From: Chara braunii
Taxonomy: Eukaryota; Plantae; Charophyceae
Length of the DNA: 48,211 bases
Assembly: GCA_003427395.1 (NCBI GenBank)
Contig: BFEA01000039.1
Location: forward strand, 1,575,774 to 1,623,984
Direction of reading: 5' to 3'
The position numbers were made by a program, and so were the translations under genes. Shown here piece by piece: positions 9,651 to 29,204 of the stretch (position 1 is its first letter; each line of letters begins with the position of its first letter). The notes under the pieces are model-generated. The model was not told where the DNA came from. It saw only the letters and a list, made by a program, of their open reading frames with translations, and ran no database searches.

Positions 9651-9659
9651 AGTTCGGGT

Positions 9660-9825
9660 GTACCCCTTCGGAAAGCCACTCCACGAAAGTCCCTCTTCGG
9701 AAAACCTGCGTCCTGAAAGTACCGCTCGATAAGCCCCCTTCGGACGTACCCCTTCGGAAAGCCCACTTCGCGAAAGTACCCCTTCGGAAAGCCTGCTTCA
9801 CGAAAGTACCCGCTCGAGAAGCCCC
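9660..9825. repeat. ~15-bp-period (30-bp higher-order) tandem array in the LTR, running into the N block; copy at 25035-25200
   Basis: gtaccccttcggaaa / gcccacttcgcgaaa / gtaccccttcggaaa / gcctgcttcacgaaa. Confidence 0.85.
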
Positions 9826-10625
9826 NNNNNNNNNNNNNNNNNNNNNNNNNNNNNNNNNNNNNNNNNNNNNNNNNNNNNNNNNNNNNNNNNNNNNNNNNNN
9901 NNNNNNNNNNNNNNNNNNNNNNNNNNNNNNNNNNNNNNNNNNNNNNNNNNNNNNNNNNNNNNNNNNNNNNNNNNNNNNNNNNNNNNNNNNNNNNNNNNNN
10001 NNNNNNNNNNNNNNNNNNNNNNNNNNNNNNNNNNNNNNNNNNNNNNNNNNNNNNNNNNNNNNNNNNNNNNNNNNNNNNNNNNNNNNNNNNNNNNNNNNNN
10101 NNNNNNNNNNNNNNNNNNNNNNNNNNNNNNNNNNNNNNNNNNNNNNNNNNNNNNNNNNNNNNNNNNNNNNNNNNNNNNNNNNNNNNNNNNNNNNNNNNNN
10201 NNNNNNNNNNNNNNNNNNNNNNNNNNNNNNNNNNNNNNNNNNNNNNNNNNNNNNNNNNNNNNNNNNNNNNNNNNNNNNNNNNNNNNNNNNNNNNNNNNNN
10301 NNNNNNNNNNNNNNNNNNNNNNNNNNNNNNNNNNNNNNNNNNNNNNNNNNNNNNNNNNNNNNNNNNNNNNNNNNNNNNNNNNNNNNNNNNNNNNNNNNNN
10401 NNNNNNNNNNNNNNNNNNNNNNNNNNNNNNNNNNNNNNNNNNNNNNNNNNNNNNNNNNNNNNNNNNNNNNNNNNNNNNNNNNNNNNNNNNNNNNNNNNNN
10501 NNNNNNNNNNNNNNNNNNNNNNNNNNNNNNNNNNNNNNNNNNNNNNNNNNNNNNNNNNNNNNNNNNNNNNNNNNNNNNNNNNNNNNNNNNNNNNNNNNNN
10601 NNNNNNNNNNNNNNNNNNNNNNNNN
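9826..10625. other. 800-N gap or mask inside the 3' LTR
   Basis: Unreadable; starts 631 nt from the + strand LTR start. Confidence 0.99.
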
Positions 10626-11204
10626 GACTCAGTCTGGTGTCCCAATCGGTGCCCAACAGCTCAGTTCGATCCCGGGTCCCAATCTGCATCCGAGAGGTCT
10701 GCTCAATCCGCTGTCCCAACCTGCGTCCAAGTGCCCGGTCCGGCTCGGTATCCGAATCCGTGCCCAAAAGTCCCGCTTTACTTGATGAGCCACGTCCGAC
10801 CAAGAGGGCAGTTCATTCCGGCGATCCGAAGGCATGCCCAAAAGTGCCGCCTTGAGTGATACTCGGGTGCCACAGATCGCCTGTACCTGGTCTGTGTCTG
10901 ACGCCCGATTCACAGTGCCCCAGCCGAGCGCTAACATGTGCGCTGGCGCGAACTGGCTCACGTGCCCGCCTACCCTTTGGATCCCCCTGCTGTCCCTGAT
11001 GTGCAGCGCGTAAGAAAGCACCACGGGCGCACGGCACCTTACCTGCTCCGACTAGGAGTGCGCTGGTGCGTGCGCGGCTTCCTGCCCGTCCTGGCCCATC
11101 CCACGCAAGTGCTCGCAGGTGCGCACGATTGCCCTCACATGAGCGCACGCATGCGTGGCAGCTCCGCAACTCATCCCCCCTTGGCGCGGGTGCGCGCAGA
11201 TGCT

Positions 11205-11660
11205 CAGTGTGTGTGTGTGTGTGAGTGGTGACGCGCTGGCGATCCACCTACGCGCGCGTCATAGCGCACTCGCACGCCCCCCCCCTTCGCTGTCAGCTTG
11301 TGCAGGCACACCGGTGCGCGAGAATGCACACGTGTGTGTACGTGGATGTGCGCGCGTGTGCACGCGGGTCCACGGAAGTGTTCGCGAGGGTGCGCGCGGG
11401 TCCACGGAAGTGTCCCCGAGGGAGCGCGCTGATGTGCACAGGTATGCGCGCGTGTGCGTGGGAGTGTGCGTGCGTGTGCACGTGGATGTGCACGTGTGTG
11501 CGCGTGGGTCCGCGGAAGTGTTCGCGAGGGTGCGCGCGGGTCCGCTGAAGTGTCCCCGAGGGAGCGTGCTGATGTGCACAGGTATGCGCGCCTATGCGTG
11601 CGGGTGCGAGGAAGTGTGCGCGCGTGTGCGCTCGGGCGCGCGCAGGTCTCCGCGCGCATG
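11205..11660. repeat. GC-rich LTR segment: (TG)n, alternating purine-pyrimidine tracts and a 140-bp tandem duplication with 30-bp subunits; copy at ~26582-27065
   Basis: ggaagtgttcgcgagg at 11374 and 11514; the (TG)n run is longer in the 5' LTR. Confidence 0.8.
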
Positions 11661-12655
11661 TGCGGGTGCTCCCCTTTACTCTGTCCGGCCGAGCGCACGT
11701 GCGCCAGGGTGCGCGAGCGCCTGAGTGGGTGCATGCGAATCTCGAGCGCCCATCTCCCGGTGCGTCTGGCTCGCCTGTCCTTACTTGCGCTTCTCTCCGC
11801 GCGTGTCCCCATCCCGTTCGTCTGTATCATGCGCCTGAAGTCTCTGACCGCCTGTCTCCAGCGTGCGAGAAGTCTCCGTGCTCCTCTTCGTGTGTGGCCG
11901 CCTGACTCCGCATGTCCCGAACGCCCCATGCCTGGGCCCGGTTGGGCTTAAGTACTCCGCCGGGCCCTTCCCACAAGTGCGTGTGTGTGTGCCACGGCCT
12001 CCAGTGCACCGAGGCTGCGGAACACTTGCAGCGCCTCGGTACCGTGCCTGCGCCCGGGCCTGATTGGGCCCCCGAAAGGCCACTGGCGCACAAGGCCTTC
12101 TCGCAGGGAACTGGGCCCTCTGCAGCGGCCTGGTACCATGGCTAGTCCCGAGCCTGTCTCAGGCCTGCCGGGGCCTAGGCGGTCCCCACGCAGCCGTGGT
12201 GTCGTTCTTAGGGAAAAATCCAAACTGCCCCGTAAGTGAAAATTGGACCCCTCATTCAATTGGCCTAGCCAGGCCCCGCGTCCTGGCGGGACCGCCCCTT
12301 CGGAGGAACACTCAACCGGCCCAATGGGTCTCTTGCTCGCAGTGCCGGCCTGCGTCATGGTTAGTGAGTCGCGGCCGGATAAAGTAGGCTCCTTGATCGC
12401 TGTGTCGGCCAGCCTCACGGTCGGTGTGTCCCGGTAACGTGAAATAACGTCGAGCATGGTCACCGGCGCCCCATTCTTCGCCGTGTCGTCCCACCGCATG
12501 GTCGGTAATTGTTGGTAACCGTGTCGGTCCCAGTGTTGGCCTGCCTCATAGTTGATGAGGCCCGGCCAGGTAGACTACCGTTGAGCGAGGGTCTCGTCGT
12601 GTGCCCTCGGAAAGGAAGTAAAGGGCGGCGTAGTATTGGAGCCGCCCAACAGCAG

Positions 12656-12673
12656 CCCCCCCCCCCCATTCTC
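12656..12673 (-). promoter_or_regulatory. Polypurine tract
   Basis: Minus strand GAGAATG12, 4 nt before the 3' LTR. Confidence 0.8.
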
Positions 12674-13028: not shown

Positions 13029-16000
13029 CTAGAAGTTTGTGTTGTGTTTTTTTTTAAGATTGGAGGATTCTGGTACTTGAGAAGTGATTTGTGCGGCCGG
13101 CTTTAGTGCATGCCGATTGGAGGATTCCCCTACTTCGGAGGTGGTTGGTGTTGTGGGTTCTTCTAAGGACTCATCCTTCTTTTTACCTTTTTTTGGGTGC
13201 GTATGGGCGTGATTTTTCTGCCTGATTTTTTCCGTGTGTGGAATATTTTCTGTTCGGTCTTTAAATACTTTAAGACGGGCGTCAGACACCGGTTCCTTCC
13301 ATCTTGTGCTGTCTAATTCCTCTATTAAGTAGGCTCCGCCTTCTAGTCTTTTGACCACTCTACAGGGCCCCATCCATCTGTTTGCTAGCTTCCCTGTCCA
13401 TGTTCTCTCTAATGAGGAGTTATAGAGGAAGACGAGGCTCCCTGTTGGTATCCCTTCTTGCCTGACGCGAAGGTTCCTATCCCATCTTTCTTTCTCTTTT
13501 CCTCTCTGGATCTTTAATTTGTCTATGGTGTCTAGGATGTTATCCTGAAGAGTTTCGGCTATTTGTTTGATTCTTGCGGCCAACAACTGTTCTCTAGTGG
13601 AGATCTCTTCCCAGTCAATCGTTTGCCAAGAGTCGATATGAAATTCTATAGGTAAGGGACAATGGCATCCAAACCATAATGTATAAGGCGGATATCCTGT
13701 AGTTGAGCGAACCGTAATGTTATCTGCCCAGACGGCGAATTTGAAATATTTTGGCCAGTTATTCTCCTTTCCTTCGCACCATTTAGTGAGCGCGTTGACT
13801 AGAGACTGGTGCCCTCTTTCTACAGGAGCGTTAGTTTGGGGATGATATGTTGTGGATAGCGATACTCGTATTCCCGCTTTTTGGAGCAATTCTTGGACTT
13901 TCTTAGCCATAAACTCTGATCCCCTATCCATGACAATTTTGTCAATGCAGCCGTAGCGAGTGATATATTCAGTCAAATAGCCACTAACTGCTTTACCTGT
14001 TTTTTGACGTAGTGGTCATGCCTCCACGAATCCAGTCAAGTCGTCTCTAATGTCCATGATGTAATTCATTCCTCCTTCTCCCTTGGGCATCTTAACTAGG
14101 TCTAAGTGCACTTTCTGGCCTATTGTTGTGGGATAGGAAGGAAATAAGGGTTCTTTATATTTAACTACCGCTCTCTTCTGGCATTCCACGCATGTCAGAC
14201 AGTATGATTCTACGTCCTTATATAGGTCGTCCCAGCAGTAGAGGTTCCTAATTTTTTCAAAAGTTCCTTTTATTCCTCTATGTCCTCTGACGATGCCATC
14301 GTGAAGTTCCACTATTATATCTCGACGCTCGTCCTCATCACAGACGACTCTCATTGGCATTCCATTTTTAGGTGGTCTTTTAAAGAAGTGTCCTGCCTTG
14401 AGGCAATATTGTTGAGCTTCCTTCCTAAGCTTGTCATCTAATTCGATTTCCCCAATAAGATAACACCCTATCTTATGATATTTGCCAATGTATAGATTTT
14501 CAAGAAACAAGGAAGTTCCTCCTGCAACGGACTCTATTTTTAATGAGTTTAAGTCCATTTGTAAAAATTTGTCAATACCACTAGGCGACCCTAGATCTCC
14601 CTCTTCTAGAGGGATTCGCGAGAGACCATCAACAACTGAGTTCTTAGCTCCGGATATTCGCTCTACTAGGTAGTCAAACATCCTTATATGCATGAGTCAT
14701 CTGGTGACCGTTGGATCTGTTAATGAGAAGTCTTTTTGTAAGACAGCTGCCATCGTCGTCGGATCGACCCGCAGTACGAACCTTCGTCCGTAAATATAAT
14801 GTCGGAAAATATTTAAACAATGTAAGACTCCTATAACTTCTTTCTTAAATTGTGAGTAGTTCCTTTCGGTGGCGTTTAAGGTTTTACTCTCGAATCTGAG
14901 AGACCTTTCATTACCGGCTTGATCCTTTTGAGTCACGACTCCACCAACAGAGGCAAGTCCCGCATCCGTACATACGACGAATGGGCGGTTTTCCTCGTCT
15001 TCGAAGTAAGGTACTCCAAGGACTTGACCTCCTTCCTTAAACTCATCTTTTAACGTTCTTACTGTATCCTCTTGTTCACTCGTCCATTGTCATTCTACTC
15101 CCTTGCGCAAGAGCTTTCGTAGGGGTTCGGCTTTTGCAGCATAGCCTTTTATGAAATTCCTCTTGAATCCGACCACTCCTAAAAACTGACGTATGTCATT
15201 AATATGTCTGAGGGGAGTTGGCCATTTCATAAGTTTTTCTAACTTTGCCGGATCTGGGCGTCTGCCATCCTTGTCGCAGATGTAACATAATATCTTTATA
15301 GAAGATACTGCCCATCTGTTTTTTGTTCCACTGACCGTAAGGTTTGCATCCTCTAACTTCACTAGTACTTTCTTGATATCCTCTGCGTCGGTGGCTATGA
15401 ATTTCCTCAGTCTCGGTCTTACCTCTGTCTCATCTTTATCGTATAGTCTTTTGATCGGAAAGTCATCTAGGAAGACCTCTACCAGATTTGGTATGAGTTC
15501 GCCGAGAACGGCAACCATGACTCTCTGAAAGACTGCAACACCGTTAGTCCACCCCATAGATACCACCGTCATTTGAACTAAGCCTAACGGTGTGTGCAAC
15601 TCAGTTAGATGTCGGTCTCTGTAGTCTAACGGTATCTCATCATATCCCGAAAAAAAGTCGCAGACTAAGTAAATTGAACGTCCTGCTGAGACTTCAGATA
15701 GGAGATCCGCGTTTGGGATGGACCCAACGTCCCTCACTGTGACCTTATTTGTCTTCTGCAAGTCTTGTATCCATCGTAGTTTGCCGTTTGATTTCCCTAT
15801 GAAGAACCAACGATTCACGTAGGCGCTCTCACAAGGTTCTGCTACAAATGTCCTTATCTTCTCCTTGTGGAAGTCTACTATCATCTCCTTTTTCTTTTGT
15901 GCACACTTCCATCCTGCATCGTTCCATGGAGTGTGAGGGACCGTATAGATTCTTGCAGGTTTAACATATCGTGGATCTATTCGCCCTTTTTCTGCGTCAC

Positions 16001-16286
16001 AAAAGGCCTTGTCGCATGATCTTAATGTTTCTATTACGAGTTCTTTCTCCTTTTTCGTTATGTTTCCGTCGCCTATATCCATTTTCTTTAACCTGTCTTC
16101 AGTGATTCTCTGCCCTTCAGTGGCCTTTCGTTCCCGGATCATCTGAGTAATTTCTTCTTCAGTGATCCCTATTTCCCCGGTCCTATCACGGATGACCGCG
16201 GATGGCTTGACTTTTTGGGCTACAGTTTTGTATTTTTTTCCCCCGCCGTGTGAGGGAATTCCTCCAAAAAAGAAAGGTTTATACAT
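13029..16286 (-). pseudogene. pol: pol: reverse transcriptase, RNase H and integrase in one frame with 3 premature TGA stops
   Basis: RT: DFFSGYDEI, MGWTNGVAVFQ, VFLDD. RNase H: VVCTDA, KKEVIG, RVDP, VVDGLSR. Integrase: HDGIVRGH...CVEC, HLD, MDRGSEF, PVERGH and a GPY/F-like WMGPCRV; no chromodomain. ORFs starting 16286, 14936, 14693 and 13976 share one frame. Confidence 0.95.
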
Positions 16287-17293
16287 CCACCGAATTCCTC
16301 GTTGTCAGCCTCTTTCTCATAGACTGTTCCGTCTACCATATACTTAGTTTCGAGGTCCTCAACGTCAATTGTTTTTCCTCTCACTTTATGCGGTCCTAGT
16401 GTAAGGTCTTCAGATATCATTTGGCAACTTCTTGTGTTCAGTCGTCCTTTATTTTGCAATGAAATTTTGTGACGGTTGTCAAATTCGTTCACGGTCTTCA
16501 AGGTAAGTCTGCTACCTTGAGGTCCGTCTATGGTAACCGTCTGACTTCCGTCCCGTTTATTTTCGGTGGTGGCGTTGACCCGTGTCAGCCATGTTTTTCC
16601 AAGAATTATTTCTGACGAACAGTTCTCAACTGTAAAGACGGGCACAGTGACCTCAACTCCAGCAATCACGATCTTGGCTTTGTGGCATACCCCGAGCGCA
16701 TGTTGCTTGAGTTTGTTAGCGGATATCATGGTCATAGCGACACTCCTGTCTACCTCTAAGCCAAGGTTTCTGACCACCTTGTCCTCACAAACGGTAGACT
16801 CGGAGCCGTTGTCGACTATAGCCTCCATCCCTATGTCATTGACTGTGACGTTGAGCTTTGCACTGACAAGGACGTAAAAGTAGTTGCTTCCGCCTTCGCT
16901 GGTTTGTACTCGTTGGTCTCCTTCGGTTAGTGCCGTTAGGACTGAGGTTTTCACCTCCTCCTTCTGTTGTCCAAAAGTTGTCTCTTGTAGCGGTACTTTA
17001 GTTTTCTTCATCATGCCTATTAATTCATCCCTCGCCGGGCCACAGCCTGCTATGAATTCCTTGAGGGTGATAGGGATTGGCATATCTATGGCCCTTCTTA
17101 AAGGTTTTCGTAAATCGATTTCATCTAGCGAGCTTTTAAGGTGAAACTTCTTGGCTGCTCGTTTTCTAGGGGATTGTGGTGACTTTGGCGGTCTGTCATA
17201 GGTTGATCTTGATCCTCTTTCTTTGTATTGCTCGCCGACCTCGCCGATGCCTTGGGTGCATACGTAAACTTCTGCTGTTTTACGTCTCTTCAA
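16220..17293 (-). pseudogene. Gag-pol linker and aspartic protease
   Basis: AIVDNGSES catalytic motif and ILGKTWL; frame-shifted relative to both gag and RT. Confidence 0.85.
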
Positions 17294-18863
17294 ACTTAAT
17301 GGATGAAATTCTTATGCTTGGGTTTTCTATTTGTTCGTCGAAATCATCCTCGAAGGTTACTCGGGAGAGCTTTGCTGGCATATGATCCTGAGATCGCTTG
17401 CCCTTTGCTTCATTCATCCTTCTCCTGCGGATATCCACATCAATCTTCATCGAGGGCAAGAAGGGTACCGGTTTGCCTTCTTTAGCCCAAATGACGTATT
17501 TTCGATCGTCGAGTTCAATGATGCCCTCTTTTAGTGCGTCTAACATTGCTTGACAATCTCTTTTGCGGTGGTCTTCATCTCCGCAGTATATACATGCTTT
17601 ATCATTCCATGTTCGCTTTGGGCTAGGGTCGGTTTTGTCGCGCGTGGTCCGGACAAGGGTTTCCTCCTTTGTCTGGTTATTACTTTGCAATCTCTCTACT
17701 ACCGCCTTTAGTACTTTTATTTGTCTTGTCATCTCCTCTTCTCGTCTGTCTGGTCTTTTTGCTTCTATCTCATCTTTTGGCTTCCACCTGTTATCCTTTG
17801 TATTTGACCACTTGGAGGTTCCCCATTCCACGTCGTTTCTTTTCCAGTCACTCCTGCTTCTTTTTCTCCATTCGCCCTCGTTTTTTATTGTGTCCCCTCT
17901 TCTAGGTGAGCTCGCGTAGGTGTCCATTCCTTCAGTTCTGGGTCTCCTATCCTCGAATTGCGATTTTTCTCCTCCTTTTTCTGTAGTTACGCCTTTTCCT
18001 AGGTTGTCAAGAACCCTCGAGAGGTGTGTTTTCGCGCTTTGGCCTTCGGTGTCATGGGTTAAGACTTTGACTTGGCTGAACGTGACCTTAGAGGGGAGGT
18101 CCCTCATAATCTTGTCTCGCTTTTCTCGAGACAGAAATCCTAGGAATATCCCGCACCTTTTTATTTCACCCATAAATCCACCTTCTACTAGAGGGTTCGA
18201 AGCCTTCTCATATCTCCTTGCGAACGCTACTAGATTCTCGTCCTCCTGTTTTTTCATTTCTTTGAGATGTTCTATTGAATAGGATGTTTCATCCCATGCG
18301 AAGATTCTTGTAATCCTTTCTCTGAATATTAGTCAATGCCAACTGTCCGGAATGACTTCTCTTACTTCGCGATCCATCTTGGGGGCTGTGTGGTGGAGTA
18401 GATTTATAATCATCTCTTGATCGCTCCATTTTGCTCTCATCCCCAGTACCTCCCAGTCGTCTAAGAATTCTGAAACATTCTTCCCTATGAAGATTGTTTG
18501 GATTCCGGACAGTGCCGGTAATTGGAAGGTTTGTGCTCCTAGGAAGGGGGATATGTAGGAGTCTGTTGCGTATGCCATTCTGTAAGGTTGGCTCGTGGTT
18601 TCCCTATATGGTTCCCTTGTACCAGGATCCGAGAATCGGGCTACTCTATTCCTGTTTAAAACGTTTTTCCTCCACCCTTCACTTTTGGAAGTGCGTTCCT
18701 CGAGTTCTGTGGCTGTAATTTCTACCTCTTTTAGGGTCTTCCTCAATTTTTAGGCGTCCTTTGTGACATCAGTTGTCATTTTCCTAATTGGAGTGCTCGT
18801 CCTTGATTCTTGTGTTTTGACTTCGCCGTCTATCGAAGATAGATAGACTCCTTCCGCATCCAT
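17280..18863 (-). pseudogene. gag: Gag (capsid region plus CCHC zinc knuckle), with premature stops
   Basis: ATG 18863 is in frame with ORFs 18333-18746 (FIGKNVSEFLDDWE) and 17280-18257 (CIYCGDEDHRKRDC = CX2CX4HX4C). Confidence 0.85.
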
Positions 18864-18872
18864 ATTTTTCCC

Positions 18873-19382
18873 TCACTCTTCCAGAAGTTGATCCAAGGCG
18901 ACTTTAACTCTTTCCGTCGATTCTTCTAGTAGTTCTTGCAATGTGTTGAAGTCCTCGTCTTTTCCTTCAGCTTTGACGACTAAGGCGGTAGCTAAAACGG
19001 TTTGTAGGTAGCGTGAGTTGGCCTCCAACGTATTTAAGGATATCCCATCAACTATTACGTTGGCGAGTTCTGCTAGAGCTCGAGCGTCCTCTCTTAATTT
19101 TTCTACAGATGTGGTTATCGTCTCTTGCCAGGTGCGTGGGATTGTTTGTCCACTAGGGTTGACAGTAAGGATTTGTATTTTTACTAGAAAGAGCTCTCCT
19201 GCAGCTTTCCAGACGGTACACTTCCTGACTTCTATTACTATTTTTGTGGCGCACTCGGTTTCCTCTTCTTGGTTTAATTGTTCATTATGTACTGCTTCCA
19301 CTAGGACTCGTACTAAGGACCCTTCTCTTTCTGCTCTGCCTGAGATACTAAATTTTTATTTTCTAGGTTCGACATTAGTCAT
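18873..19382 (-). pseudogene. Extra ORF immediately upstream of gag (~169 aa, one internal TAA)
   Basis: ATG 7 nt after the previous stop; ends TGA 9 nt before the gag ATG, in the same frame. Confidence 0.55.
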
Positions 19383-19389
19383 TCCTTTG

Positions 19390-19698: not shown

Positions 19699-19913
19699 CC
19701 CTCAGTCCAAATCATCACACTGTAGGCTATGTGATTCTCTGTTTTAACTTGTGGTAGTGCCCTTGGTCTTTCACGCTCTATAGCTTCTTGTGCCAATCTT
19801 CGGCAATCTAATGTGTTTAATGCTCTAGAGGTTCGGATCCTACTAATGGAAGTTATAGTCCCTGCAAAGGATACCCGATTCACTTCCTCTTCATCAGTTA
19901 CCGTTCCTGGCAT
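19638..19913 (-). CDS. Extra ORF (91 aa, unknown)
   Basis: ATG overlaps the preceding ORF by 20 nt; part of the packed array. Confidence 0.45.
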   Translation of the reverse strand: MPGTVTDEEEVNRVSFAGTITSISRIRTSRALNTLDCRRLAQEAIERERPRALPQVKTENHIAYSVMIWTEGWMKCEIEKEETIQEARTHV

Positions 19914-20355
19914 TATTGAGTTGGTCTTGCATCCTCTTGACCTTCCATACGAGGTCTATTACGGCTGACCATTCATTGTTAGCGAGCGTAAGCCCTTCAA
20001 CTAACGGCGACGGTATTCCAATAAACGGCCTAACATAGGTACTCCACGAGAAATTTACCCTTAATTGTTGGAGTCTTCTCTTCTCGTCATGCACTATGTT
20101 CGAGGCCCGTTGCCAACAACGACCTTTTTCGTCTTCCTTAAACCTATGTTGCGGTACGTATATTCCCACATCATACTCATCAAGGTTGATGAAGTAGTAG
20201 GTGATGACATACATACCATCAATCCCCCATCCCTGACTCTTTAGACCTTCGTATCTCACGATCTCATATGGGATCACTGCTCTCTTCGATATAGAGTTAA
20301 GGGAACGGACCAACTTCCTCGACTTCCCCTCCTCTAACCTCCTACATCTCCTCAT
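19894..20355 (-). CDS. Extra ORF, repeat-domain copy 3 (153 aa)
   Basis: IPYEIV...YVIT...EYDVGIYVP...CWQRA...EKRRL...WST...IPSP. Confidence 0.65.
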   Translation of the reverse strand: MRRCRRLEEGKSRKLVRSLNSISKRAVIPYEIVRYEGLKSQGWGIDGMYVITYYFINLDEYDVGIYVPQHRFKEDEKGRCWQRASNIVHDEKRRLQQLRVNFSWSTYVRPFIGIPSPLVEGLTLANNEWSAVIDLVWKVKRMQDQLNNARNGN

Positions 20356-20436
20356 CCTTGGTCAACTCCCTTAGCATGGCTCCTAATCCTGCTCTTGATC
20401 TTGAAAGTTTTCTCTCTCTTACTAGTCTCCTTTGCA

Positions 20437-20640
20437 CTAATCCTTCACTGCCCTCATGATTCCTATTAATCTTCCTCTGTCATCTCTTATCTCGTACTCA
20501 CCTTCTACTCCAAACAGGTCTGTGTCAAGGTAGAGTTCCCCTTCTTGATCTCGTAGGCAAGAGGTTCCTCTCTTAATCTCTATCAACCCTGTTTCATCAG
20601 ATCGAACTCTTCTACAGATTGTCGTGCCTAGAGTACGCAA
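20437..20640 (-). pseudogene. Extra ORF fragment, second linker copy (DTDLFG)
   Basis: In frame with 20731-21255 across three stops; DTDLFGVE resembles DIDLFGFE; RRLVRER follows in an adjacent frame. Confidence 0.45.
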
Positions 20641-20730
20641 GTCCTCTTAGGTCCATTCCGTCAAAAGTCTGAGCAGCTCCTGGGACCTCCACGCTGTCTT
20701 AGTTCACTTGTTATATCCCCCCCAGGCGGG

Positions 20731-21546
20731 CTATTCTCGTTCCCTCTGGCCATTCGGTTTATGGTGCCGGTTTATGAAATCAATTATTAGACCTCGGTCG
20801 ATGCCTATCAACACTCCGTAAGGAATCCACGGTCTAGGCAAGTCTTCAAAAACCCTGATTTCGGTGCTCCAAGCGACTTCTTTCTTTAAGGAAAGGAGCC
20901 TATCCTTCTCGACCTCTACCACTTCTCTCGCTCTTTGCCAACAACATCCGTACACTAAATCTTCCGACCTCTCCGTTAGTAAGTAAATGCCTACGTCTCT
21001 TACCTCAGTCCCTAGGAAGCGCGCGGTCATAACATAGAGGCGGCTTAGTTCCCATGCGTTGTCGACCATCTCATAGGCCTCCACCTCATACGGAAACTCC
21101 TCCCTTCTTCCTAGGGTACTCAAGGATGCACACACCGCATCAAACTTCTCTTGCGGCGGTCGGTTCCCAGCGATGATCTTGTTATCCCACTCCTCAAGTT
21201 TCTCTGCAGACTTCGTATGCCTTACTCGTTCATGGCCCAACATTTTTTTAGCCACGCCCGCCTAACACAACCGGACTCGTTCCCTGACCAGACGACAGTA
21301 TTTTCTCCCAGAGGTCCCTAGTCTTTCCACCTTCAGTAGATATCTGATCTCGGTTTGGTTGGTAATTACCCTCAAAGTCGACTCCCTCATACGATTCAAA
21401 TAAGGTTGTATGAGTTCAAGCTCTTCAAACCCAAAAAGATCTATATCAGGAATTCGGAGGGTGGCCTTAACTTTTACCATTCTCTCTTCCACGATAGCCC
21501 TGAAGGAGAATTGTTCCCTAAGACCCGATATCCTTACCGACCCCAA
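20731..21546 (-). pseudogene. Extra ORF: linker (DIDLFG...RLVRER) plus repeat-domain copy 2
   Basis: ORFs 21262-21546 and 20731-21255 are in frame across one TAG; FPYEVE...DVGIY...CWQRA...WST...LPRP. Confidence 0.65.
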
Positions 21547-21953
21547 CTCCTTGCTCTGAGCGCCATATTAATTAAAGGCTCCCAGTTCTTGCCGTCAGTA
21601 AAACTATCAGGTAGAATAGGTTTTGGAACCTCATAGAATAGGACCGGTGATGAGTCACTGATTACTTTCTCCCCTCTCCTTTCTAATTCCTTCCTTTCCT
21701 GGTTGATGACGGTTTTAATCCAGTTTCTAAGCGACTCTCGATCAGTTCCTCTCTCTCTCAATAGAGGTATATAGGGCCTAATGTCGTACTCCCCTGTATC
21801 AAGGTGTTTTACCACAAGGACGTAGGCTTTCCCAGGAGCGTGGCGTTCCTCCAACGATATACAACTTTCTATTTTGTAAGGAAACGCCCCCCCGCTAGTA
21901 ATAGGGACTAAGGCGTCTAGGGCCGGTGTGACCCTAGGGCAATAACCTGACAT
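21534..21953 (-). CDS. Extra ORF, repeat-domain copy 1 (139 aa)
   Basis: FPYKIE...YVLV...EYDIRPYIP...ERKEL...FYEVPKP aligns with copies 2 and 3. Confidence 0.65.
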   Translation of the reverse strand: MSGYCPRVTPALDALVPITSGGAFPYKIESCISLEERHAPGKAYVLVVKHLDTGEYDIRPYIPLLRERGTDRESLRNWIKTVINQERKELERRGEKVISDSSPVLFYEVPKPILPDSFTDGKNWEPLINMALRARSWGR

Positions 21954-21999
21954 TTTCCATTCTGTATCCTCTTATCGTTACCCTTCTGCGTCACCGAGG

Positions 22000-22470: not shown

Positions 22471-22544
22471 TGTTCGGGTTGGGGCAAGAACCCTTCTCTA
22501 GCCAGTCGAAGCGAGACCACTACTGACCTATATTCCCTGTCATA

Positions 22545-22985
22545 TCAGCGTTCCTTCCCCCTTAGCTTGTCGACCACTTCCTGCAGTATACGTCGCGCTG
22601 TTACCTCGTCTGCCCAAGTATGAGAGTCGAGACTCGGAATTACCCCTAAGACCGGATCCCACCGACTTCGTTCTACAACTTGGAAAACTATGTCCGCTAG
22701 ATCGGAAGACTGATAGTAGAGGAAACCTCTGACCGCCAATTCTTGGGATTCTGCTATTAGCCTGCCTCTCCTGTCGAACTCACACCCTACCTGGGGCGCG
22801 ACCAGCAACCAGACCCTCGGCCTCAACAGGATAGATCTCCACTCCTTATCTACTTTATCCAAATATCCTCGCCTGACAGCTTGCCCGGGTAAGGTAAATT
22901 TCACCCAATCTTCTCCAATGAACTCGGTTTCCCTATAGTCGAAGTGGCAAAGCTCAACTGGGTGCTCTATCTCGTCGTGAGGCAT
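22545..22985 (-). CDS. Extra ORF-b (146 aa, unknown; may have continued toward 22000)
   Basis: ATG immediately after the ORF-a stop; the frame stays open for ~36 codons past the TGA (YDREYRSVVV...). Confidence 0.65.
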   Translation of the reverse strand: MPHDEIEHPVELCHFDYRETEFIGEDWVKFTLPGQAVRRGYLDKVDKEWRSILLRPRVWLLVAPQVGCEFDRRGRLIAESQELAVRGFLYYQSSDLADIVFQVVERSRWDPVLGVIPSLDSHTWADEVTARRILQEVVDKLRGKER

Positions 22986-23693
22986 TTAGTCGTCCGCGGA
23001 GCTCCCATCTAAAATCCTGCCCCTGTCTATCTCCCCACTTGTCTCTGCTCTCCTTACCTCGTCTCTGACCCTGAACACGACTCTGCGCAACTGTCTACGT
23101 GTGGGAATCGCTCGGTCTAGATAGTAAGTAAGTAACCAGGCTAGCTCGACGGCAGTTATCATAAACCGTGTCGCCCTCTGCACTACAGCGAGTAGCCTCT
23201 GATGTCTCTCCTCATTGCCAAGGACTACTCCTGTGAGGAATCTAGGAACGATAACCGCTCTGACAAACGTAGCTCTAGGGAGCTCCCAGTCGTACGCAAA
23301 ATGCACCGTGTAGAAGGCTACCGAGTCGGCTCCGCTCCTCTCCACAAACTCACTGAACACTCTCGCACCGAATCTACGTGCTAATGATGTCAGGCATAAG
23401 AGAGTGTGACAACGACGGGCAGTCTTTATCACTAGATACCTCCACTCCTCCTCTGAGAGATATAGTCTAACGTTCACTTTTTCGCGAAGAGGTTCGCTAG
23501 CCCTGTCCCTTCTAACACATACTCTAGGCTCCGCCTCAATTCTCACCCACAGGAAGACGCCCTCGCGTATGACTAGACCTCCCTGTTCAGACGGCCTATA
23601 CTTGCTCGATCCTTCCAAAGGAAGACTAATGACGTCACAGAAGCCGCTTCGTTCAACGAAATGTACTTGAGACTCCGATTCGATGTAAACCAT
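22986..23693 (-). CDS. Extra ORF-a (235 aa, unknown function), first ORF after the leader
   Basis: Intact ATG-TAA ORF; preceded by an acceptor-like tttatttttgcttag; its stop abuts the next start (TAAATG). Confidence 0.7.
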   Translation of the reverse strand: MVYIESESQVHFVERSGFCDVISLPLEGSSKYRPSEQGGLVIREGVFLWVRIEAEPRVCVRRDRASEPLREKVNVRLYLSEEEWRYLVIKTARRCHTLLCLTSLARRFGARVFSEFVERSGADSVAFYTVHFAYDWELPRATFVRAVIVPRFLTGVVLGNEERHQRLLAVVQRATRFMITAVELAWLLTYYLDRAIPTRRQLRRVVFRVRDEVRRAETSGEIDRGRILDGSSADD

Positions 23694-24550
23694 TCCTAAG
23701 CAAAAATAAAAGACGGTTCTCTCTCAGTATGTCACTCCCTGTGCTACTCTCAGACTGTTGAGCTCACAGACCCCCACGACAGGCCTCCTCTGATCACCCC
23801 TGTATCCCTTCAAGACGTCAACAGGCCTAGAAGAGAACCGCCCTCTAGCGTATCTCTCCCTACCCTCGTGTCAAGAAGGAGGTTGGATCAATGTGCCATC
23901 GTCGCTGGCCTACCTTCCCTGTCGTGACCTGAGCACGAGCCGACCAACTCATGTGCTCTAGGGTGGACCGAAGTCACACGCTAATAGGGAGGTGGTGTCT
24001 CACTCGTGCATCCTCACTCTTATCCATGCCTCTACTCGACCCACCTCAGGGATGGTCTCACATCCCGACTCGTGATCCCCCCTGCTATCCATCAGAATCG
24101 ACTAGCCTGTCTAGTCCCCGCCCAACTCCTTGCAAATTCGGGGCGCTTCTCCCCTCCCCTTCAGTCCCTTCAAGTATTCCCCTGCTCACGATTCTCTCTC
24201 TTAGATTCAATATCTGGGTGGACTGACCAAAGGGTACGGAAAATCAGAATGATATCCCTCGATCACAAGGAAGGCAACAGGAATGAAATGCATGAAAGAT
24301 GAGAAGAAAAGCAGGAATCAACGAAACCACGAAATGCAGAAATCACAATCTCACCATTGAACGTCGATCATAGGTCGATGGGGGTGTCGTCTGCCCGCTC
24401 GTGCCCGTACTGTCCAATGTCTCACTTGGGCATTCAGACCACTGGCCAACTGCTTAGCCTCCTCCGTCTTCGCTGTCCCAGTCACATCCCTGTCCTGCTC
24501 CTCTCACATCCCCGCGGTTACAGGCGGACCGAAGTCCCGAGAGGCAGCCT

Positions 24551-24568
24551 TCCCCGGCAACGGCGCCA
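24551..24568 (-). promoter_or_regulatory. Primer-binding site complementary to the 3' end of tRNA-Asp
   Basis: Minus strand TGGCGCCGTTGCCGGGGA (18 nt) just inside the 5' LTR; matches plant tRNA-Asp ...TCCCCGGCAACGGCGCCA, the primer also used by Athila-type elements. Confidence 0.9.
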
Positions 24569-24782
24569 CTGTCGACCGGTAGAAGGGGTCTGCCGACACG
24601 CCGTCCGAACCCTATGCCTCGCGCCACGTCTGTCACCCGCGGAAGGGTCGGTCGGGGCTCCTGTAACCTGCACAAAACTTGTCAGTCCACATCAACAAAT
24701 ACAAGTACCGTAGACGACCGTGACCAATGCGAGAAGGAACTCATGAAACACTGTCTGGCATAAATAAAAGAAGTAGCTGCAT

Positions 24783-25025
24783 TCAGTCCAAAACAATGGG
24801 ATGTGAAACACTCGTTCCGGCCTCAGCCGTACACCTCGCTCCTCTGTCTGGGAAGTCCGTCTGAGTCCCTACGGACCTAGTCAACAAACGTCGCCTAATC
24901 CTCCTCCCGATTGGGTGTCGCCTATACCGTGCACGTCGATCCCAAGGGACTGTGCTCGAACTCTCAGTGTCGGAAGTAGCCTCCCTCGCCCATCGGGGCC
25001 AAAGCTCCAGATCCACCGTGACCAT
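24783..25025 (-). CDS. LTR-internal 80-aa ORF (5' LTR copy)
   Basis: 78/80 aa identical to 9408-9650. Confidence 0.4.
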   Translation of the reverse strand: MVTVDLELWPRWAREATSDTESSSTVPWDRRARYRRHPIGRRIRRRLLTRSVGTQTDFPDRGARCTAEAGTSVSHPIVLD

Positions 25026-25200
25026 AGTTCGGGTGTACCCCTTCGGAAAGCTACTCCACGAAAGTCCCTCTTCGGAAAGCCTGCTTCCTGAAAGTACCGC
25101 TCGAGAAGCCCCCTTCGGACGTACCCCTTCGGAAAGCCCACTTCGCGAAAGTACCCCTTCGGAAAGCCTGCTTCACGAAAGTACCCGCTCGAGAAGCCCC

Positions 25201-26000
25201 NNNNNNNNNNNNNNNNNNNNNNNNNNNNNNNNNNNNNNNNNNNNNNNNNNNNNNNNNNNNNNNNNNNNNNNNNNNNNNNNNNNNNNNNNNNNNNNNNNNN
25301 NNNNNNNNNNNNNNNNNNNNNNNNNNNNNNNNNNNNNNNNNNNNNNNNNNNNNNNNNNNNNNNNNNNNNNNNNNNNNNNNNNNNNNNNNNNNNNNNNNNN
25401 NNNNNNNNNNNNNNNNNNNNNNNNNNNNNNNNNNNNNNNNNNNNNNNNNNNNNNNNNNNNNNNNNNNNNNNNNNNNNNNNNNNNNNNNNNNNNNNNNNNN
25501 NNNNNNNNNNNNNNNNNNNNNNNNNNNNNNNNNNNNNNNNNNNNNNNNNNNNNNNNNNNNNNNNNNNNNNNNNNNNNNNNNNNNNNNNNNNNNNNNNNNN
25601 NNNNNNNNNNNNNNNNNNNNNNNNNNNNNNNNNNNNNNNNNNNNNNNNNNNNNNNNNNNNNNNNNNNNNNNNNNNNNNNNNNNNNNNNNNNNNNNNNNNN
25701 NNNNNNNNNNNNNNNNNNNNNNNNNNNNNNNNNNNNNNNNNNNNNNNNNNNNNNNNNNNNNNNNNNNNNNNNNNNNNNNNNNNNNNNNNNNNNNNNNNNN
25801 NNNNNNNNNNNNNNNNNNNNNNNNNNNNNNNNNNNNNNNNNNNNNNNNNNNNNNNNNNNNNNNNNNNNNNNNNNNNNNNNNNNNNNNNNNNNNNNNNNNN
25901 NNNNNNNNNNNNNNNNNNNNNNNNNNNNNNNNNNNNNNNNNNNNNNNNNNNNNNNNNNNNNNNNNNNNNNNNNNNNNNNNNNNNNNNNNNNNNNNNNNNN
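25201..26000. other. 800-N gap or mask inside the 5' LTR
   Basis: Same length, offset and flanks as 9826-10625. Confidence 0.99.
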
Positions 26001-26578
26001 GACTCAGTCTGGTGTCCCAATCGGTGCCCAACAGCTCAGTTCGATCCCGGGTCCCAATCTGCATCCGAGAGGTCTTCTCAATCCGCTGTCCCAACCAGCG
26101 TCCAAGTGCCCGGTCCGGCTCGGTATCCCAATCCGTGCCCAAAAGTCCCACTTCACTTGATGAGCCACGTCCAGCCAAGAGGGCAGTTCATTCCGGCGAT
26201 CCGAAGGCGTGCCCAAAAGTGTCGCCTTGAGTGATACTCGGGTGCCACAGATCGCCCGTACCTGGTCTGTGTCTGATGCCCGATTCAAAATGCCCCAGCC
26301 AAGCGCTAACGTGTGCGCTGGCGCGAACTGGCTCAGGTGCCCGCCTACCCTTTGGATCCCCCTGCTGTCCCTGATGTGCAGCGCGTAAGAAAGCGCCCCG
26401 GGCGCACGGCACCTTACCTGCTCCGACTAGGAGTGCGCTGGTGCGTGCGCGGCTTCCTGCCCGTCCTGGCCCATCCCACACAAGTGCTCGCAGGTGCCCA
26501 CGATTGCCCTCACATGAGCGCACGCATGCGTGGTAGCTCCGCAACTCATCCCCCCTTGGCGCGGGTGCGCGCAGATAC

Positions 26579-26628
<50 letters not shown>

Positions 26629-29204
26629 GTGACGCGTTGGCGATCCACCTACGCGCGCGTCATAGTGCACTCGCACGCCCCCCCCCTTCGCTGTCAGCGT
26701 GTGCAGGCACACCGGTGCGCGAGAATGTGCGTGTGTGTGTACGTGGATCTGCGCACATGTGCACGCGGGTCCACGGAAGTGTTTGCGAGGGTGCGCGCGG
26801 GTCCGTGGAAGTGTCCCCGAGAGAGCGCGCTGATGTGCACAGGTATGCGCGCGTGTGCGCGGGAGTGTGCGTGCGTGTGCACGTGGATGTGCACGTGTGT
26901 GCGCGCGGGTCCGCGGAAGTGTTCGCGAGGGTGCGCGCGGGTCCACGAAAGTGTCCCCGAGGGAGCGCGCTGATGTGCACAGGTATGCGCGCGTGTGCAT
27001 GCGGGTGTGCGGAAGTGTGCGCGTGTGTGCGCTCGGGCGCGCGCAGGTCTCCGCGCGCGTGTGTGGGTGCTCCCCTCTACTCCGTCCAGCGGAGCTCACG
27101 TGCGCCAGGGTGCGCGAGCTCCTGCGTGGGTGCATGCGAATCTCGAGCGCCCGTCTCCCGGCGCGTCTTGCTCGCCTGTCCTTACTTGCGCTTCTCTCCG
27201 CGCGTGTCCCCGTCCCGTTCGTCTGTATCGTGCGCATGAAGTCTCTGACCGCCTGTCTCCAGCGTGCGAGAAGTCCCCGTGCTCCTCTTCGTGCGTGGCC
27301 GAAAGTCCTGTGCGCCTGACTCCGCATGTCCCGAATGCCCCATGCCTGGGCCCGGTTGGGCTTAAGTACTCCGCCGGGCCCTTCCCACAAGTGCGTGTGT
27401 GTGTGCCACGGCCTCCGGTGCACCGAGGCTGCGGAACACTTGCAGCGCCTCGGTACCGTGCCTGCGCCTGGGCCTGATTGGGCCTCCGAAAGGCCACTGG
27501 CGGACAAGGCCTTCTCGTAGGGAACTGGGCCCTCTGCAGCGGCCTGGTACCATGGCTAGTCCCGAGCCTGTCTCAGGCCTGCCTGGGCCTAGGCGGTCCC
27601 CACGCAGCCGTGGTGTCGTTCTTAGGGAAAAATCCAGACGGCCCCGTTAGTGAAAATTGGACCCCTCATTCAATTGGCCTAGCCGGGCCCCGCGTCCTGG
27701 CGGGACCGCCCCTTCGGAGGAACACTCAACCGGCCCAACGGGTCTCTTGCTCGCAGTGCCGGCCTGCGTCATGGTTAGTGAGTCGCGGCCGGATAAAGTA
27801 GGCTCCTTGATCGCAGTGTCGGCCAGCTTCACGATCGGTGTGTCCCGGTAACGTGAAATAACGTCGAGCATGGTCACCGCCGCCCCGTTCTTCGTCGTGT
27901 CGTCCCCCACCGCTTGGTCGGTAATTGTTGGTAACCGTGTCGGTCCCAGTGTTGGCCCGCCTCATAGTTGATGAGGCCCAGCCAGGTAGAATACCATTGA
28001 GCGAGGGTCTTGTCGCGTGCCCTCGGAAAGGAAGTAAAGGGCGGCGTAGTATTGGAGCCGCCGGACACCGGAACGCGGCGTGGGGGACGTAGCCGCTCTC
28101 CACACATCGATCCGATCATGCAGACCGTGGCTACCAAAAATGCAGCAAAAGAAAGAGAAGAGGGGCGGAAAGGACGAAGAACAAGAAGAAGAATACAATT
28201 AGAATGGCGCCAATCCAAAATTACAGTTACACACCCGATTAAAGGCACCGACTAATCAGAATTTCGTTGCAGCCGCATAAAGAAGTGCGTAAGCAAAAGG
28301 CGTCGCGCGGCAAAAGAAAGTCCTAATTACAAAATTCCTAAATTCCTATCTAATGCGAAAAAGCAAAAAGCACAAGTGCCGGAGAGAAAGTCCAAAATTC
28401 CGAGAGCCATCGGGGCTCGATAAAATTCGAAAAGAAAATTTCAAAAAGAACGAAGCAAAATTCCTGCGCGATGTCCGCGCCTAAAAAGTTCCGAAACCGA
28501 AACAAAAGAAACGACGTCAACATTTATTAATTGCGGGCTTGTCGGTGCGCCAGTCATCCACCCGACCAATCAATAGCCCGTCTCGAGACACACCCAGCTC
28601 CGAACTCAGCCATCCGAAAAGAATCGACGGAAAAGACGAAGAAGCGAGGGTACTGATGCAATTTCCCATCCATCCCAATCTGCCGTAATTGGCCCAACCT
28701 TCCCAGCTTAGGACCCTTCATTGCTATTGCGCAGAAAGTCGCGCGCTACATTAAGTGGTTCGTCACAGGCCTCCTGTAATGTTGGAGACATATAACCTGC
28801 ACGAACGGAGGGGAACCTCACAAATCTGCCCGTATGGAAACTTCTTTCCATGTTTTTCAGTTCTCTGGGAGGAGCTATGGGTTCTGTTTTTTTGTGTTTT
28901 TTTAAACTTTTATAATTTTTTTTTGCCTGTTAGTTAAACCACTAGTACATCCAGGCCTCGTTTTGTCGAGGCGGGAAAGGACTGCAGACCAAGCTTTGCC
29001 GAAGAGCCAGCGTAACTTTTGCTTTTGGTTTTGCCTGGCATCACCAGCCTTTTTGGTCCGGTGGCGCCCAGCCTCCGAAGAACGTGGTATAGGTTATGTT
29101 GCGCACTACAGGCTGCAAGACCGTGCCCTAGCTGTGTGTCAGTAGAAGGGCAATAGAAAACGGAAATTGTCTTTTGCTTCGCTGCTAACATTGAGTGAGA
29201 TCAA

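What the first reader, a model, noticed from the sequence alone, without database searches (positions are those of the whole stretch)
19894..21953. Triplicated ~115-aa domain at ~800-bp period within the extra-ORF cassette
Seen: three paralogs start at FPYKIE (~21880), FPYEVE (~21095) and IPYEIV (~20275). They share YV[LMI], D[VI]xxY, CWQRA (copies 2 and 3), E[KR]xxL, WST (copies 2 and 3) and Fxx[VLI]PxP. Linkers between them share DxDLFG and RLVRER...AG. The similarity is visible only at protein level, so the tandem duplication is old and was retained. Inference: a diversifying accessory family, as expected for host-conflict effectors.
Basis: seen in the sequence. Interest (0 to 1): 0.75.

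Follow-up and report, generated by a model that had tools for sequence, protein, structure and literature searches.

The report
Three paralogous small ORFs in retrotransposon
An old, decayed giant LTR retrotransposon, whose closest relatives are in the stonewort alga Chara, carries three related small genes of an otherwise unknown protein family upstream of gag; they were kept by selection and likely make helper proteins for the element, a modest addition to the known variety of extra genes in plant retrotransposons.

Summary
Three about 115-residue stretches on the minus strand (c1 21971-21537, c2 21261-20734, c3 20361-19897) are significantly alike (z 7.8-33 against shuffles). They are alike only in one reading frame, and third codon positions are randomised. 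They lie between the primer-binding site and gag of an 18.9-kb Ty3/gypsy-order LTR retrotransposon (9195-28067). This copy is old: its LTRs are 93-97% identical and gag-pol holds four in-frame stops.

A related 1.16-kb contig (L001) carries the same three types in the same order. For c3 against its L001 counterpart, pN is 0.20 and pS 0.78, which indicates purifying selection. An exhaustive HMMER scan of 1.84 billion proteins found seven true relatives. Two are Chara braunii gene models that contain reverse transcriptase. Five are free-standing proteins of 81-161 aa.

Conserved start and stop positions, frame changes between units, and 19-20-nt gaps in L001 indicate three separate small ORFs, not one repeat protein. 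The 'linkers' are absent from L001, full of stops, and not significantly alike.

No Pfam, PDB-sequence or Foldseek match was found. The predicted fold is a beta-beta-beta-alpha-beta sandwich with a weak gelsolin-like resemblance (Z 5.2). The function is inferred only. 'Diversifying host-conflict effector' is not supported.

The parts
24570..28067 (-). 5' LTR (starts TGT, ends ACA; holds an 800-N run at 25201-26000)
   Evidence: blastn of the two ends gives 93.1% identity over 2062 nt and 96.8% over 631 nt. The ends were read.
24551..24568 (-). Primer-binding site TGGCGCCGTTGCCGGGGA, 1 nt after the LTR
   Evidence: The same 18 nt form the PBS of the peanut element FIDEL, described there as complementary to the 3' end of A. 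thaliana tRNA-Asp (PMC2844528 Table 1, passage read).
22548..23723 (-). ORF A (245 codons stop-to-stop) and ORF B (146 codons), same frame, separated by one stop; no known family
   Evidence: The stop that ends ORF B is private to this copy: all 6 contigs of run X1 that cover it read another letter there (table 3).
21537..21971 (-). Copy 1 (type 1): ORF of 139 codons from ATG 21953 to stop 21534-21536
   Evidence: Nearest relatives are P0024 (42% identity) and L001-d1.
21265..21567 (-). 'Linker 1': 101-codon open stretch in another frame, overlapping the end of copy 1 by 31 nt; contains DIDLFG and RLVRER
   Evidence: Absent from L001. Not significantly like linker 2.
20734..21261 (-). Copy 2 (type 2): 176 codons stop-to-stop, 170 from ATG 21243
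   Evidence: Nearest relative is P0023 (40-43% identity).
20345..20733 (-). 'Linker 2': stretch with several stops and a frame change; contains DTDLFG, and RLVRER...AG in a different frame
   Evidence: Absent from L001.
19897..20361 (-). Copy 3 (type 3): ORF of 153 codons from ATG 20355 to stop 19894-19896
   Evidence: Its orthologue L001-d3 is 65% identical, with pN .197 and pS .777. The two form a clade with support 100/99.
18876..19355 (-). 160-codon open stretch between the cassette and gag; no known family
17283..18749 (-). gag (two open stretches in one frame split by one TGA; CCHC knuckle CIYCGDEDHRKRDC)
   Evidence: zf-CCHC gives only a weak Pfam match, E 0.029. The stop is listed.
13032..17311 (-). 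pol: protease 16223-17311, RT 15093-16304, RNase H 14700-15089, integrase 13032-14696, with three in-frame TGA stops
   Evidence: Pfam Asp_protease_2, RVT_1, RT_RNaseH_2, Integrase_H2C2 and rve.
12656..12673 (-). Polypurine tract gagaatgggggggggggg
9195..12651 (-). 3' LTR (800-N run at 9826-10625); 4-bp target-site duplication CCGG at 9191-9194 and 28068-28071

Best explanation
The three stretches are three tandem paralogous small ORFs (about 139, 170 and 153 codons) of a previously unnamed protein family. They sit between the primer-binding site and gag of a decayed 18.9-kb Ty3/gypsy-order LTR retrotransposon, and they likely encode non-enzymatic helper proteins that serve the element's own propagation.

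Shown here:
- The copies are homologous.
- They diverged under constraint in this one frame.
- The three types and their order predate the split from a second element.
- Relatives exist only in Chara braunii RT-bearing gene models and in short environmental contigs.
- Starts and stops of the single units recur in independent copies.

Inferred:
- Each ORF is translated separately from the element's RNA. The 19-20-nt gaps in the relative suggest reinitiation or leaky scanning, or subgenomic RNAs.
- The products are binding or adaptor modules. Conserved positions are hydrophobic or structural, there is no catalytic pattern, and the model is a predicted beta-beta-beta-alpha-beta sandwich plus a C-terminal helix.
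- The three have divided the work between them. They have distinct net charges, and the charge of type 3 is conserved.

What they bind (Gag or RNA of the element, or a host structure such as the cytoskeleton) is not known.
For: Homology: z 7.8-33, with 0 of 500 shuffles reaching the score.

Coding constraint: codon-position identity is .40/.51/.24 (c1-c2).39/.50/.22 (c1-c3) and .50/.63/.33 (c2-c3). The other two frames give z <= 2.3.

Second element L001:
- It holds the end of type 1, then type 2, then type 3, in that order.
- c3 vs d3 over 133 codons: 65% aa identity, pN .197, pS .777.
- Tree support: c3+d3 100/99; type-1 clade 89/91.

Family size and range:
- 8 proteins reached E <= 1e-3 among 1,835,955,588 representatives.
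- 7 are real. One (P0027) is a sum of 22 repeats of <= 5.3 bits each.
- P0025 and P0030 are Chara braunii hypothetical proteins that carry RVT_1.
- P0023, P0024, P0026, P0028 and P0029 are 81-161-aa proteins on 509-667-nt contigs.

Separate ORFs:
- Type-1 ends fall within a few residues of each other in c1, L001-d1, P0024 and P0028 (alignment).
- Type-1 ORFs are 139, 131 and 139 aa; type 2 are 170, 178 and 161; type 3 are 153 and 135.
- Each unit has exactly one Met before the PY motif.
- Successive units are in different frames, both between c1 and c2 in the window and between all units in L001.
- In L001, stop-to-next-ATG gaps are 19 and 20 nt.
- In the window, no stop falls inside c1, c2 or c3, while the linkers carry at least 7 stops and 3 frame changes.

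Part of the family, not a one-off:
- 4373 contigs of DNA run X1 lie on the internal region at 90-99% identity.
- The cassette bins have depth 262-902, against 490-1119 over pol.

No enzyme signature: the columns conserved in 5 or more rows are L, P-Y, Y-V, D, Y, R and hydrophobic residues.
Against: - This copy is dead (four in-frame stops in gag-pol), so nothing here shows present-day function.
- Translation of three small ORFs ahead of gag on a eukaryotic RNA is unusual, and no data here show it. RNA support is thin: 176, 9 and 1 reads at 90% identity or more in three oligo-dT runs, on both orientations, with no joints.
- In the window, linker 1 and c2 share a frame with a single stop between them, and c2, linker 2 and c3 share a frame. 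A longer ancestral ORF is therefore not excluded for this lineage.
- The small relatives come from an automatic gene caller on 0.5-0.7-kb contigs, so their starts are not independent proof of initiation sites.
- The selection estimate rests on one orthologous pair with saturated synonymous sites.
- The structure models are of low to middling confidence (pLDDT 57 and 67).
Confidence: 0.6

Rival explanations
1. One long extra ORF (an 'ORF1' polyprotein or an N-terminal extension of Gag) holds three internal repeats joined by conserved linkers. It appears in pieces only because this copy has decayed.
For: - Linker 1 and c2 are in one frame with a single TAG between them.
- c2, linker 2 and c3 share a frame.
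- The motifs DxDLFG and RLVRER recur in the same order in both linkers.
- gag-pol of this copy also carries stops.
Against: - Unit ends and starts recur in independent sequences: L001, P0023, P0024 and P0028.
- Units change frame in both elements.
- Both linkers are missing from L001, where the units sit 19-20 nt apart.
- Linker similarity is at chance level.
- Disruptions cluster in the linkers: at least 10, against 0 in the three units.
Confidence: 0.15
2. The proteins are counter-defence effectors, for example suppressors of RNA silencing or DNA methylation, in an arms race with the host.
For: - They are element-borne, lineage-restricted and without cellular homologues.
- There are several paralogues.
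- The host clearly attacks this family: differences from other copies are transition-biased (T>C 126, A>G 77, C>T 55, G>A 48 places).
- All four gag-pol stops are TGA.
Against: - No sign of diversifying change. The measurable pair is under purifying selection, and type-specific features are conserved.
- No similarity to any known suppressor or defence-related family in Pfam, PHROGs or PDB.
- Nothing tested here bears on silencing.
Confidence: 0.15
3. A host gene fragment was picked up by the element (transduction), duplicated, and carried along without any role for the element.
For: Capture of host sequence by LTR retrotransposons is documented (review PMC7264820, read in part).
Against: - No homologue lacking a link to RT was found among 1.84 billion representatives. 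The only named ones carry RVT_1.
- The cassette is at family-wide depth, whereas transduced genes occur in one or a few copies (PMC7264820 abstract).
- There was purifying selection between two element lineages.
Confidence: 0.05
4. This is non-coding tandem repeat DNA of the kind that swells the internal regions of giant plant retrotransposons. The open frames are accidental.
For: Giant non-chromovirus elements often hold tandem arrays in expanded non-coding regions (PMC6317226, passages read).
Against: - Similarity exists in only one of the three frames.
- Third codon positions are at random level while second positions are best kept.
- pN is far below pS.
- DNA-level similarity is nil for two of the three pairs.
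Confidence: 0.02

Closest known systems
Extra ORFs (eORF-5'F / aORFs) of plant Ty3/gypsy non-chromovirus retrotransposons (Ogre, Tat, Athila superclade)
   Same: - Sense-strand coding sequence between the 5' LTR and gag of a very large element with very long LTRs.
- No similarity to known domains, which fits the reported heterogeneity: 314 groups in Ty3/gypsy, and only 21% with any CDD match (PMC6317226, passages read).
   Different: - Three paralogous small ORFs instead of one ORF of 250 codons or more.
- The host is a charophyte-alga-like genome rather than a seed plant.
- The family spans elements whose RTs are only 26-27% identical.
- No plant mobile domain, Transposase_28 or Athila ORF-1.
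Athila-type elements (e.g. peanut FIDEL)
   Same: - Identical 18-nt tRNA-Asp-type primer-binding site.
- Ty3/gypsy domain order without a second RNase H.
   Different: - No room for an env-like ORF after integrase (the open frames end at 12748 and the polypurine tract is at 12673).
- 4-bp CCGG target duplication.
- The extra coding capacity is upstream of gag.
Caulimovirid (plant pararetrovirus) gene layout
   Same: A run of small ORFs placed ahead of the capsid-polymerase genes, separated by only a few nucleotides. In L001 the gaps are 19-20 nt. The caulimovirid layout is stated from general knowledge, not from a call.
   Different: - This element has LTRs, integrase and a target-site duplication.
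- No sequence similarity to any viral family was found.
Gelsolin-homology / ADF-H domains (three-repeat proteins such as severin, fragmin, CapG)
   Same: - Domain size of about 115 aa in three copies.
- Predicted order of elements beta-beta-beta-long alpha-beta-...-alpha.
- Gelsolin-family chains fill 13 of the top 14 rows of the structure search for model 2 (best Z 5.2, rmsd 3.8, 84 aligned) and rows 2-16 for model 1.
   Different: - Z is below the level that unrelated models reach (7-8, per the tool's note).
- No Foldseek match at E <= 1e-3.
- No Pfam Gelsolin match at E <= 10.
- No PDB sequence-profile match.
- The units here are separate ORFs.

Membership tests
Ty3/gypsy (Metaviridae) LTR retrotransposon | Two long terminal repeats with TG..CA ends and a target-site duplication | tested here: met
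   LTRs 9195-12651 and 24570-28067 are 93-97% identical. The ends are TGT...ACA, and CCGG is duplicated.
Ty3/gypsy (Metaviridae) LTR retrotransposon | Domain order protease - RT - RNase H - integrase after gag | tested here: met
   Pfam hits lie in that order on the minus strand, from 17311 down to 13032.
Ty3/gypsy (Metaviridae) LTR retrotransposon | tRNA primer-binding site next to the 5' LTR and polypurine tract next to the 3' LTR | tested here: met
   PBS at 24568-24551, identical to a published tRNA-Asp PBS. PPT at 12673-12656.
eORF-5'F as defined by Neumann et al. 2019 (PMC6317226) | Open frame in sense orientation upstream of the polyprotein | tested here: met
   All cassette ORFs are on the gag-pol strand, between the PBS and gag.
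eORF-5'F as defined by Neumann et al. 2019 (PMC6317226) | At least 250 codons (the authors' operational cut-off, methods passage read) | tested here: not met
   The three units are 139-176 codons and ORF A is 245 codons stop-to-stop. Such a screen would not have listed them.
Ogre ORF1 / plant mobile domain (PF10536), Retand Transposase_28 (PF04195), Athila ORF-1 (PF03078) | Match to the Pfam model | tested here: not met
   No Pfam family at E <= 0.01 for any cassette ORF, and none of these at E <= 10.
Gelsolin-homology domain | Sequence match to Pfam Gelsolin or to solved gelsolin-family chains | tested here: not met
   No such hit at E <= 10 in Pfam, nor with three profiles against PDB sequences.
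Gelsolin-homology domain | Shared fold (central sheet between a long and a short helix) | tested here: inconclusive
   Best Z 5.2 and 4.6-4.7 on models of pLDDT 67 and 57, which is within the range of chance arrangements. Foldseek found nothing.
Gelsolin-homology domain | Actin or calcium binding | not testable with these tools
   Needs a binding assay.

The most novel reading that the evidence does not exclude
The three ORFs are a retrotransposon-borne trio of gelsolin-fold proteins that bind actin. They would let the element's particles or RNA ride or remodel the actin streaming system of the giant cells of stoneworts. This would be a cytoskeleton-hijacking module invented or captured by a plant-lineage retroelement and spread across several RT lineages.
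Probability: 0.07. Interest if true: 0.7.

Novelty: new member of a known kind. Interest (0 to 1): 0.4.

Why it matters
Extra ORFs of plant LTR retrotransposons are common, but almost none has a known role, and surveys that require 250 codons miss small ones.

This is a small, selected, three-member gene family. It is tied to retroelements of the algal lineage around Chara. Gene order is conserved between elements, and the members lie beside RTs only 26-27% identical to this element's RT. That gives a defined target for asking what retroelements need beyond gag-pol, and how several cistrons upstream of gag are expressed in a eukaryote.

The case also shows that a word-index protein search missed relatives that an exhaustive HMMER scan found.

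Tried and rejected
Searches that found nothing:
- Word-index protein search with c2, at near and longer lengths: no hit.
- ESM Atlas: best 0.84 for c2 and 0.89 for c3 (phage hypothetical clusters). Both are under the 0.9 lead level.
- Pfam at E <= 10 for all cassette pieces and for L001-d3: only chance-level rows.
- PHROGs: nothing below E 0.26.
- PDB sequence profiles A1, A3 and A4: nothing below E 0.069.
- Foldseek against PDB and BFVD: no match at E <= 1e-3.
- Scans of viral contigs and prokaryotic genome contigs with A1: none.
- Earlier notes of this scan: nothing.

Fourth copy: ORF B and all other cassette pieces were tested against the three copies. None was related.

Linkers as introns:
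- Linker 1 is bounded by cg|GTAAGG and TGTTAG|g.
- However, the phases do not join c1 to c2 in this copy.
- L001 keeps a GGTAAGAG motif at the junction.
- RNA reads cover linker 2: 5 reads in X6 and 2 in X7 at place 20496.
- No RNA joint was seen.
- The idea was dropped, though it is not excluded.

dsRNA-binding domain: considered from the order of elements (alpha-beta-beta-beta-alpha). No Pfam support and no such structural match.

Pairing of c2 with c3 (complex prediction): no verdict, score 0.00.

RNA evidence: no listed holder of the stretch is on record as RNA.

Whole genome: none is held for this window.

Whether the remaining stops are private to this copy therefore stays open.
Full report
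SETTING

The window is repeat-rich eukaryotic DNA, and no whole genome is held for it. Long direct repeats at 9195-12646 and 24570-28062 are 93.1% identical over 2062 nt and 96.8% over 631 nt. They bound a minus-strand element.

Read on the minus strand, the element has these features:
- It starts TGT at 28067 and ends ACA at 9195.
- It is flanked by a 4-bp duplication, CCGG.
- One nucleotide after the 5' LTR lies TGGCGCCGTTGCCGGGGA (24568-24551). [quoted passage not shown]
- A polypurine tract sits at 12673-12656.
- Pfam places protease, RT, RNase H, the integrase zinc domain and the integrase core in that order from 17311 down to 13032.
- A CCHC knuckle lies in the gag stretch 18332-17283.

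This is therefore an 18,873-bp Ty3/gypsy-order LTR retrotransposon. About 5.8 kb between the PBS and gag has no known family.

Of the 22 proteins matching the RT at E <= 1e-10, 17 are Chara braunii hypothetical proteins. The best twelve are 64-71% identical. The host is therefore a stonewort-type charophyte or something close to it.

The copy is old and decayed:
- gag-pol carries four in-frame stops, all TGA, and frame changes.
- Its differences from other copies in a DNA run of the same coded organism are transition-biased: T>C 126, A>G 77, C>T 55 and G>A 48 places.

THE OBSERVATION

- Pairwise local alignments give z 9.3, 7.8 and 32.8, with 0 of 500 shuffles reaching the score.
- All quoted motifs are in alignment A1.
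- A profile of the three finds no further copy among all open stretches of 20 aa or more on both strands.
- Of 120 pairs among 16 pieces of the cassette, only these three pairs are significant.
- The linker motifs are present. Linker similarity is at chance level both as protein (z 1.3-1.9) and as DNA (z 1.2).

CODING OR NOT

- In the protein-guided alignments, identity by codon position is .40/.51/.24, .39/.50/.22 and .50/.63/.33.
- Translations of the other two frames are unrelated (z <= 2.3).
- DNA similarity is nil for c1 against the others and weak for c2-c3 (z 7.1).
- This is the pattern of sequences that diverged as protein in this frame. It is not the pattern of a non-coding repeat.

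RELATIVES

A pattern scan of metagenome contigs found one 1164-nt contig, L001. It holds, in order:
- the end of a type-1 unit;
- a type-2 unit, with two in-frame TGA;
- a type-3 unit.

Best pairings by score are c3-d3 454, c2-d2 216 and c1-d1 86. For c3-d3, over 133 codons, amino-acid identity is 65%, pN is .197 and pS is .777 (saturated). That is purifying selection, and it is seen even though both copies have since decayed.

The exhaustive HMMER search gave 8 proteins at E <= 1e-3 among 1.84 billion.
- P0027 is an artefact: 22 repeat hits of 5.3 bits or less in an fn3-rich 4594-aa protein.
- P0025 and P0030 are Chara braunii gene models that also hold RVT_1. Their RT parts are only 27% and 26% identical to this element's RT. 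The family therefore sits in more than one element lineage, with the caveat that such gene models can be chimeric.
- The remaining five are proteins of 81-161 aa on 509-667-nt contigs.

In the 13-row tree, type 1 (c1, L001-d1, P0024, P0026, P0028, P0030) separates from types 2 and 3 with support 89/91. c3+d3 has support 100/99. The position of c2 within the type-2/3 group is unresolved. The split into types, and the order 1-2-3, therefore predate the divergence of the two elements.

ONE PROTEIN OR THREE

Several observations point to three cistrons.
- ORF lengths from the single upstream Met are conserved by type: 139, 131 and 139 aa for type 1; 170, 178 and 161 for type 2; 153 and 135 for type 3.
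- The type-1 stop falls within a few residues in c1, L001-d1, P0024 and P0028 (alignment).
- Neighbouring units are in different frames, both between c1 and c2 in the window and between all units in L001.
- In L001 the stop of one unit and the ATG of the next are 19 and 20 nt apart.
- The two window 'linkers', of about 290 and 375 nt, are missing from L001. In the window they hold at least 7 stops and 3 frame changes, against none inside the three units.

The single-ORF rival keeps some weight, because in the window linker 1, c2, linker 2 and c3 share a frame.

PRESENCE IN THE FAMILY AND RNA

- 4373 contigs of DNA run X1 lie on the internal region at 90-99% identity.
- Depth over the cassette bins (262-902) is comparable to depth over pol (490-1119). 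The cassette therefore belongs to the family at large.
- The stop that ends ORF B is private to this copy: 6 of 6 contigs differ there.
- Three oligo-dT RNA runs gave 176, 9 and 1 reads at 90% identity or more, on both orientations, with no joints. This shows low-level transcription of family members and nothing more.

WHAT THE PROTEINS MIGHT BE

- No Pfam, PHROGs or PDB-sequence match was found.
- AlphaFold2 with three and then seven rows gave pLDDT 57 and 67. Both models share a core of three strands, a long helix, a fourth strand and a C-terminal helix.
- Foldseek found nothing at E <= 1e-3.
- The Foldseek-independent aligner put gelsolin-family domains in 13 of the top 14 rows for model 2 (best Z 5.2, rmsd 3.8, 84 residues), and in rows 2-16 for model 1. 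Z of 5 lies inside the range the tool reports for unrelated models, so this is a lead only.
- Columns conserved in five or more rows are hydrophobic, or are P-Y, Y-V, D, Y and R, with no catalytic constellation.
- Net charge differs by type: pI 7.0, 5.9 and 9.9. It is conserved for type 3 (9.8 in L001).

My reading is that these are small non-enzymatic binding proteins that serve the element. Their partner is unknown. The silencing-suppressor idea remains possible but has no support here.

COMPARISON WITH PRINT

- Extra ORFs are frequent and very heterogeneous in large plant non-chromovirus elements: 314 similarity groups, and only 21% with any domain match. Those elements reach 24 kb, with LTRs up to 5 kb (PMC6317226, passages read). 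The review PMC7264820 was also consulted (first of three parts read).
- That survey required 250 codons, so units like these would not have been listed.
- Full-text searches returned no description of such ORFs in charophyte elements. The searches were for LTR retrotransposons with additional ORFs upstream of gag and for Chara braunii with retrotransposon terms.
- Supplementary tables of PMC6317226 were not opened and could hold related entries.

VERDICT

This is a real, old, selected three-member gene family carried by retroelements of the Chara lineage. It is a new member of the known class of retrotransposon extra ORFs, with an unusual multi-cistron layout and an unknown function.

Noticed in passing
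window 9191-9194 and 28068-28071: The target-site duplication is 4 bp, CCGG. This fits the NCGN insertion preference reported for the moss 'Phygy' non-chromovirus elements (PMC6317226 passage), although the PBS is of the Athila (tRNA-Asp) kind.
   Followed up: partly
window 18333-18335, 15090-15092, 14697-14699, 14016-14018; L001 434-436 and 512-514: All four in-frame stops of gag-pol are TGA, and so are both in-frame stops inside L001's second unit. Together with the transition-biased differences from other copies, this looks like C-to-T decay of a methylated element. Stop-codon recoding was not tested.
   Followed up: partly
window 9826-10625 and 25201-26000: Runs of exactly 800 N sit at the same place in both LTRs. 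Each is preceded by 30-nt tandem repeats (9663-9825 and 25038-25200). A 140-nt internal repeat also lies in each LTR (11207-11646 and 26608-27047).
   Followed up: no
window about 38300-48211, + strand: A non-LTR (LINE) element. It has a weak CCHC knuckle (40246-40731), an endonuclease/exonuclease/phosphatase piece (43474-43824), RVT_1 (45208-45855) and zf-RVT (47062-48027). It is broken into many frames.
   Followed up: no
L001 124-148 and 680-705: The stop of one unit and the ATG of the next are 19 and 20 nt apart, a regular, virus-like compact spacing.
   Followed up: partly
window 21541-21532, 21291-21276, 20657-20644, 20428-20415; L001 674-686: A motif like CTGGTAAGAG stands at both ends of each window linker and once at the matching junction of L001. 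The linkers could therefore have been lost (or gained) by recombination between short direct repeats.
   Followed up: partly
window 22548-23723, minus strand: ORF A plus ORF B form 392 codons in one frame with a single internal stop. They are GC-richer than the rest of the cassette and have no family. The stop ending ORF B is absent from all 6 covering contigs of run X1.
   Followed up: partly
window 7455-7518 / 33961-34024 and 9077-9142 / 35932-35997: The DNA just outside the element's 3' end is 85-89% like a stretch about 26.5 kb away. The element seems to have landed in another dispersed repeat.
   Followed up: no
P0025 residues 747-830 vs window 47142-47408 (minus strand): Part of this Chara braunii gene model matches the far end of the window at 42% identity, on the strand opposite the LINE. 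This hints that the model is a chimera of several elements.
   Followed up: no
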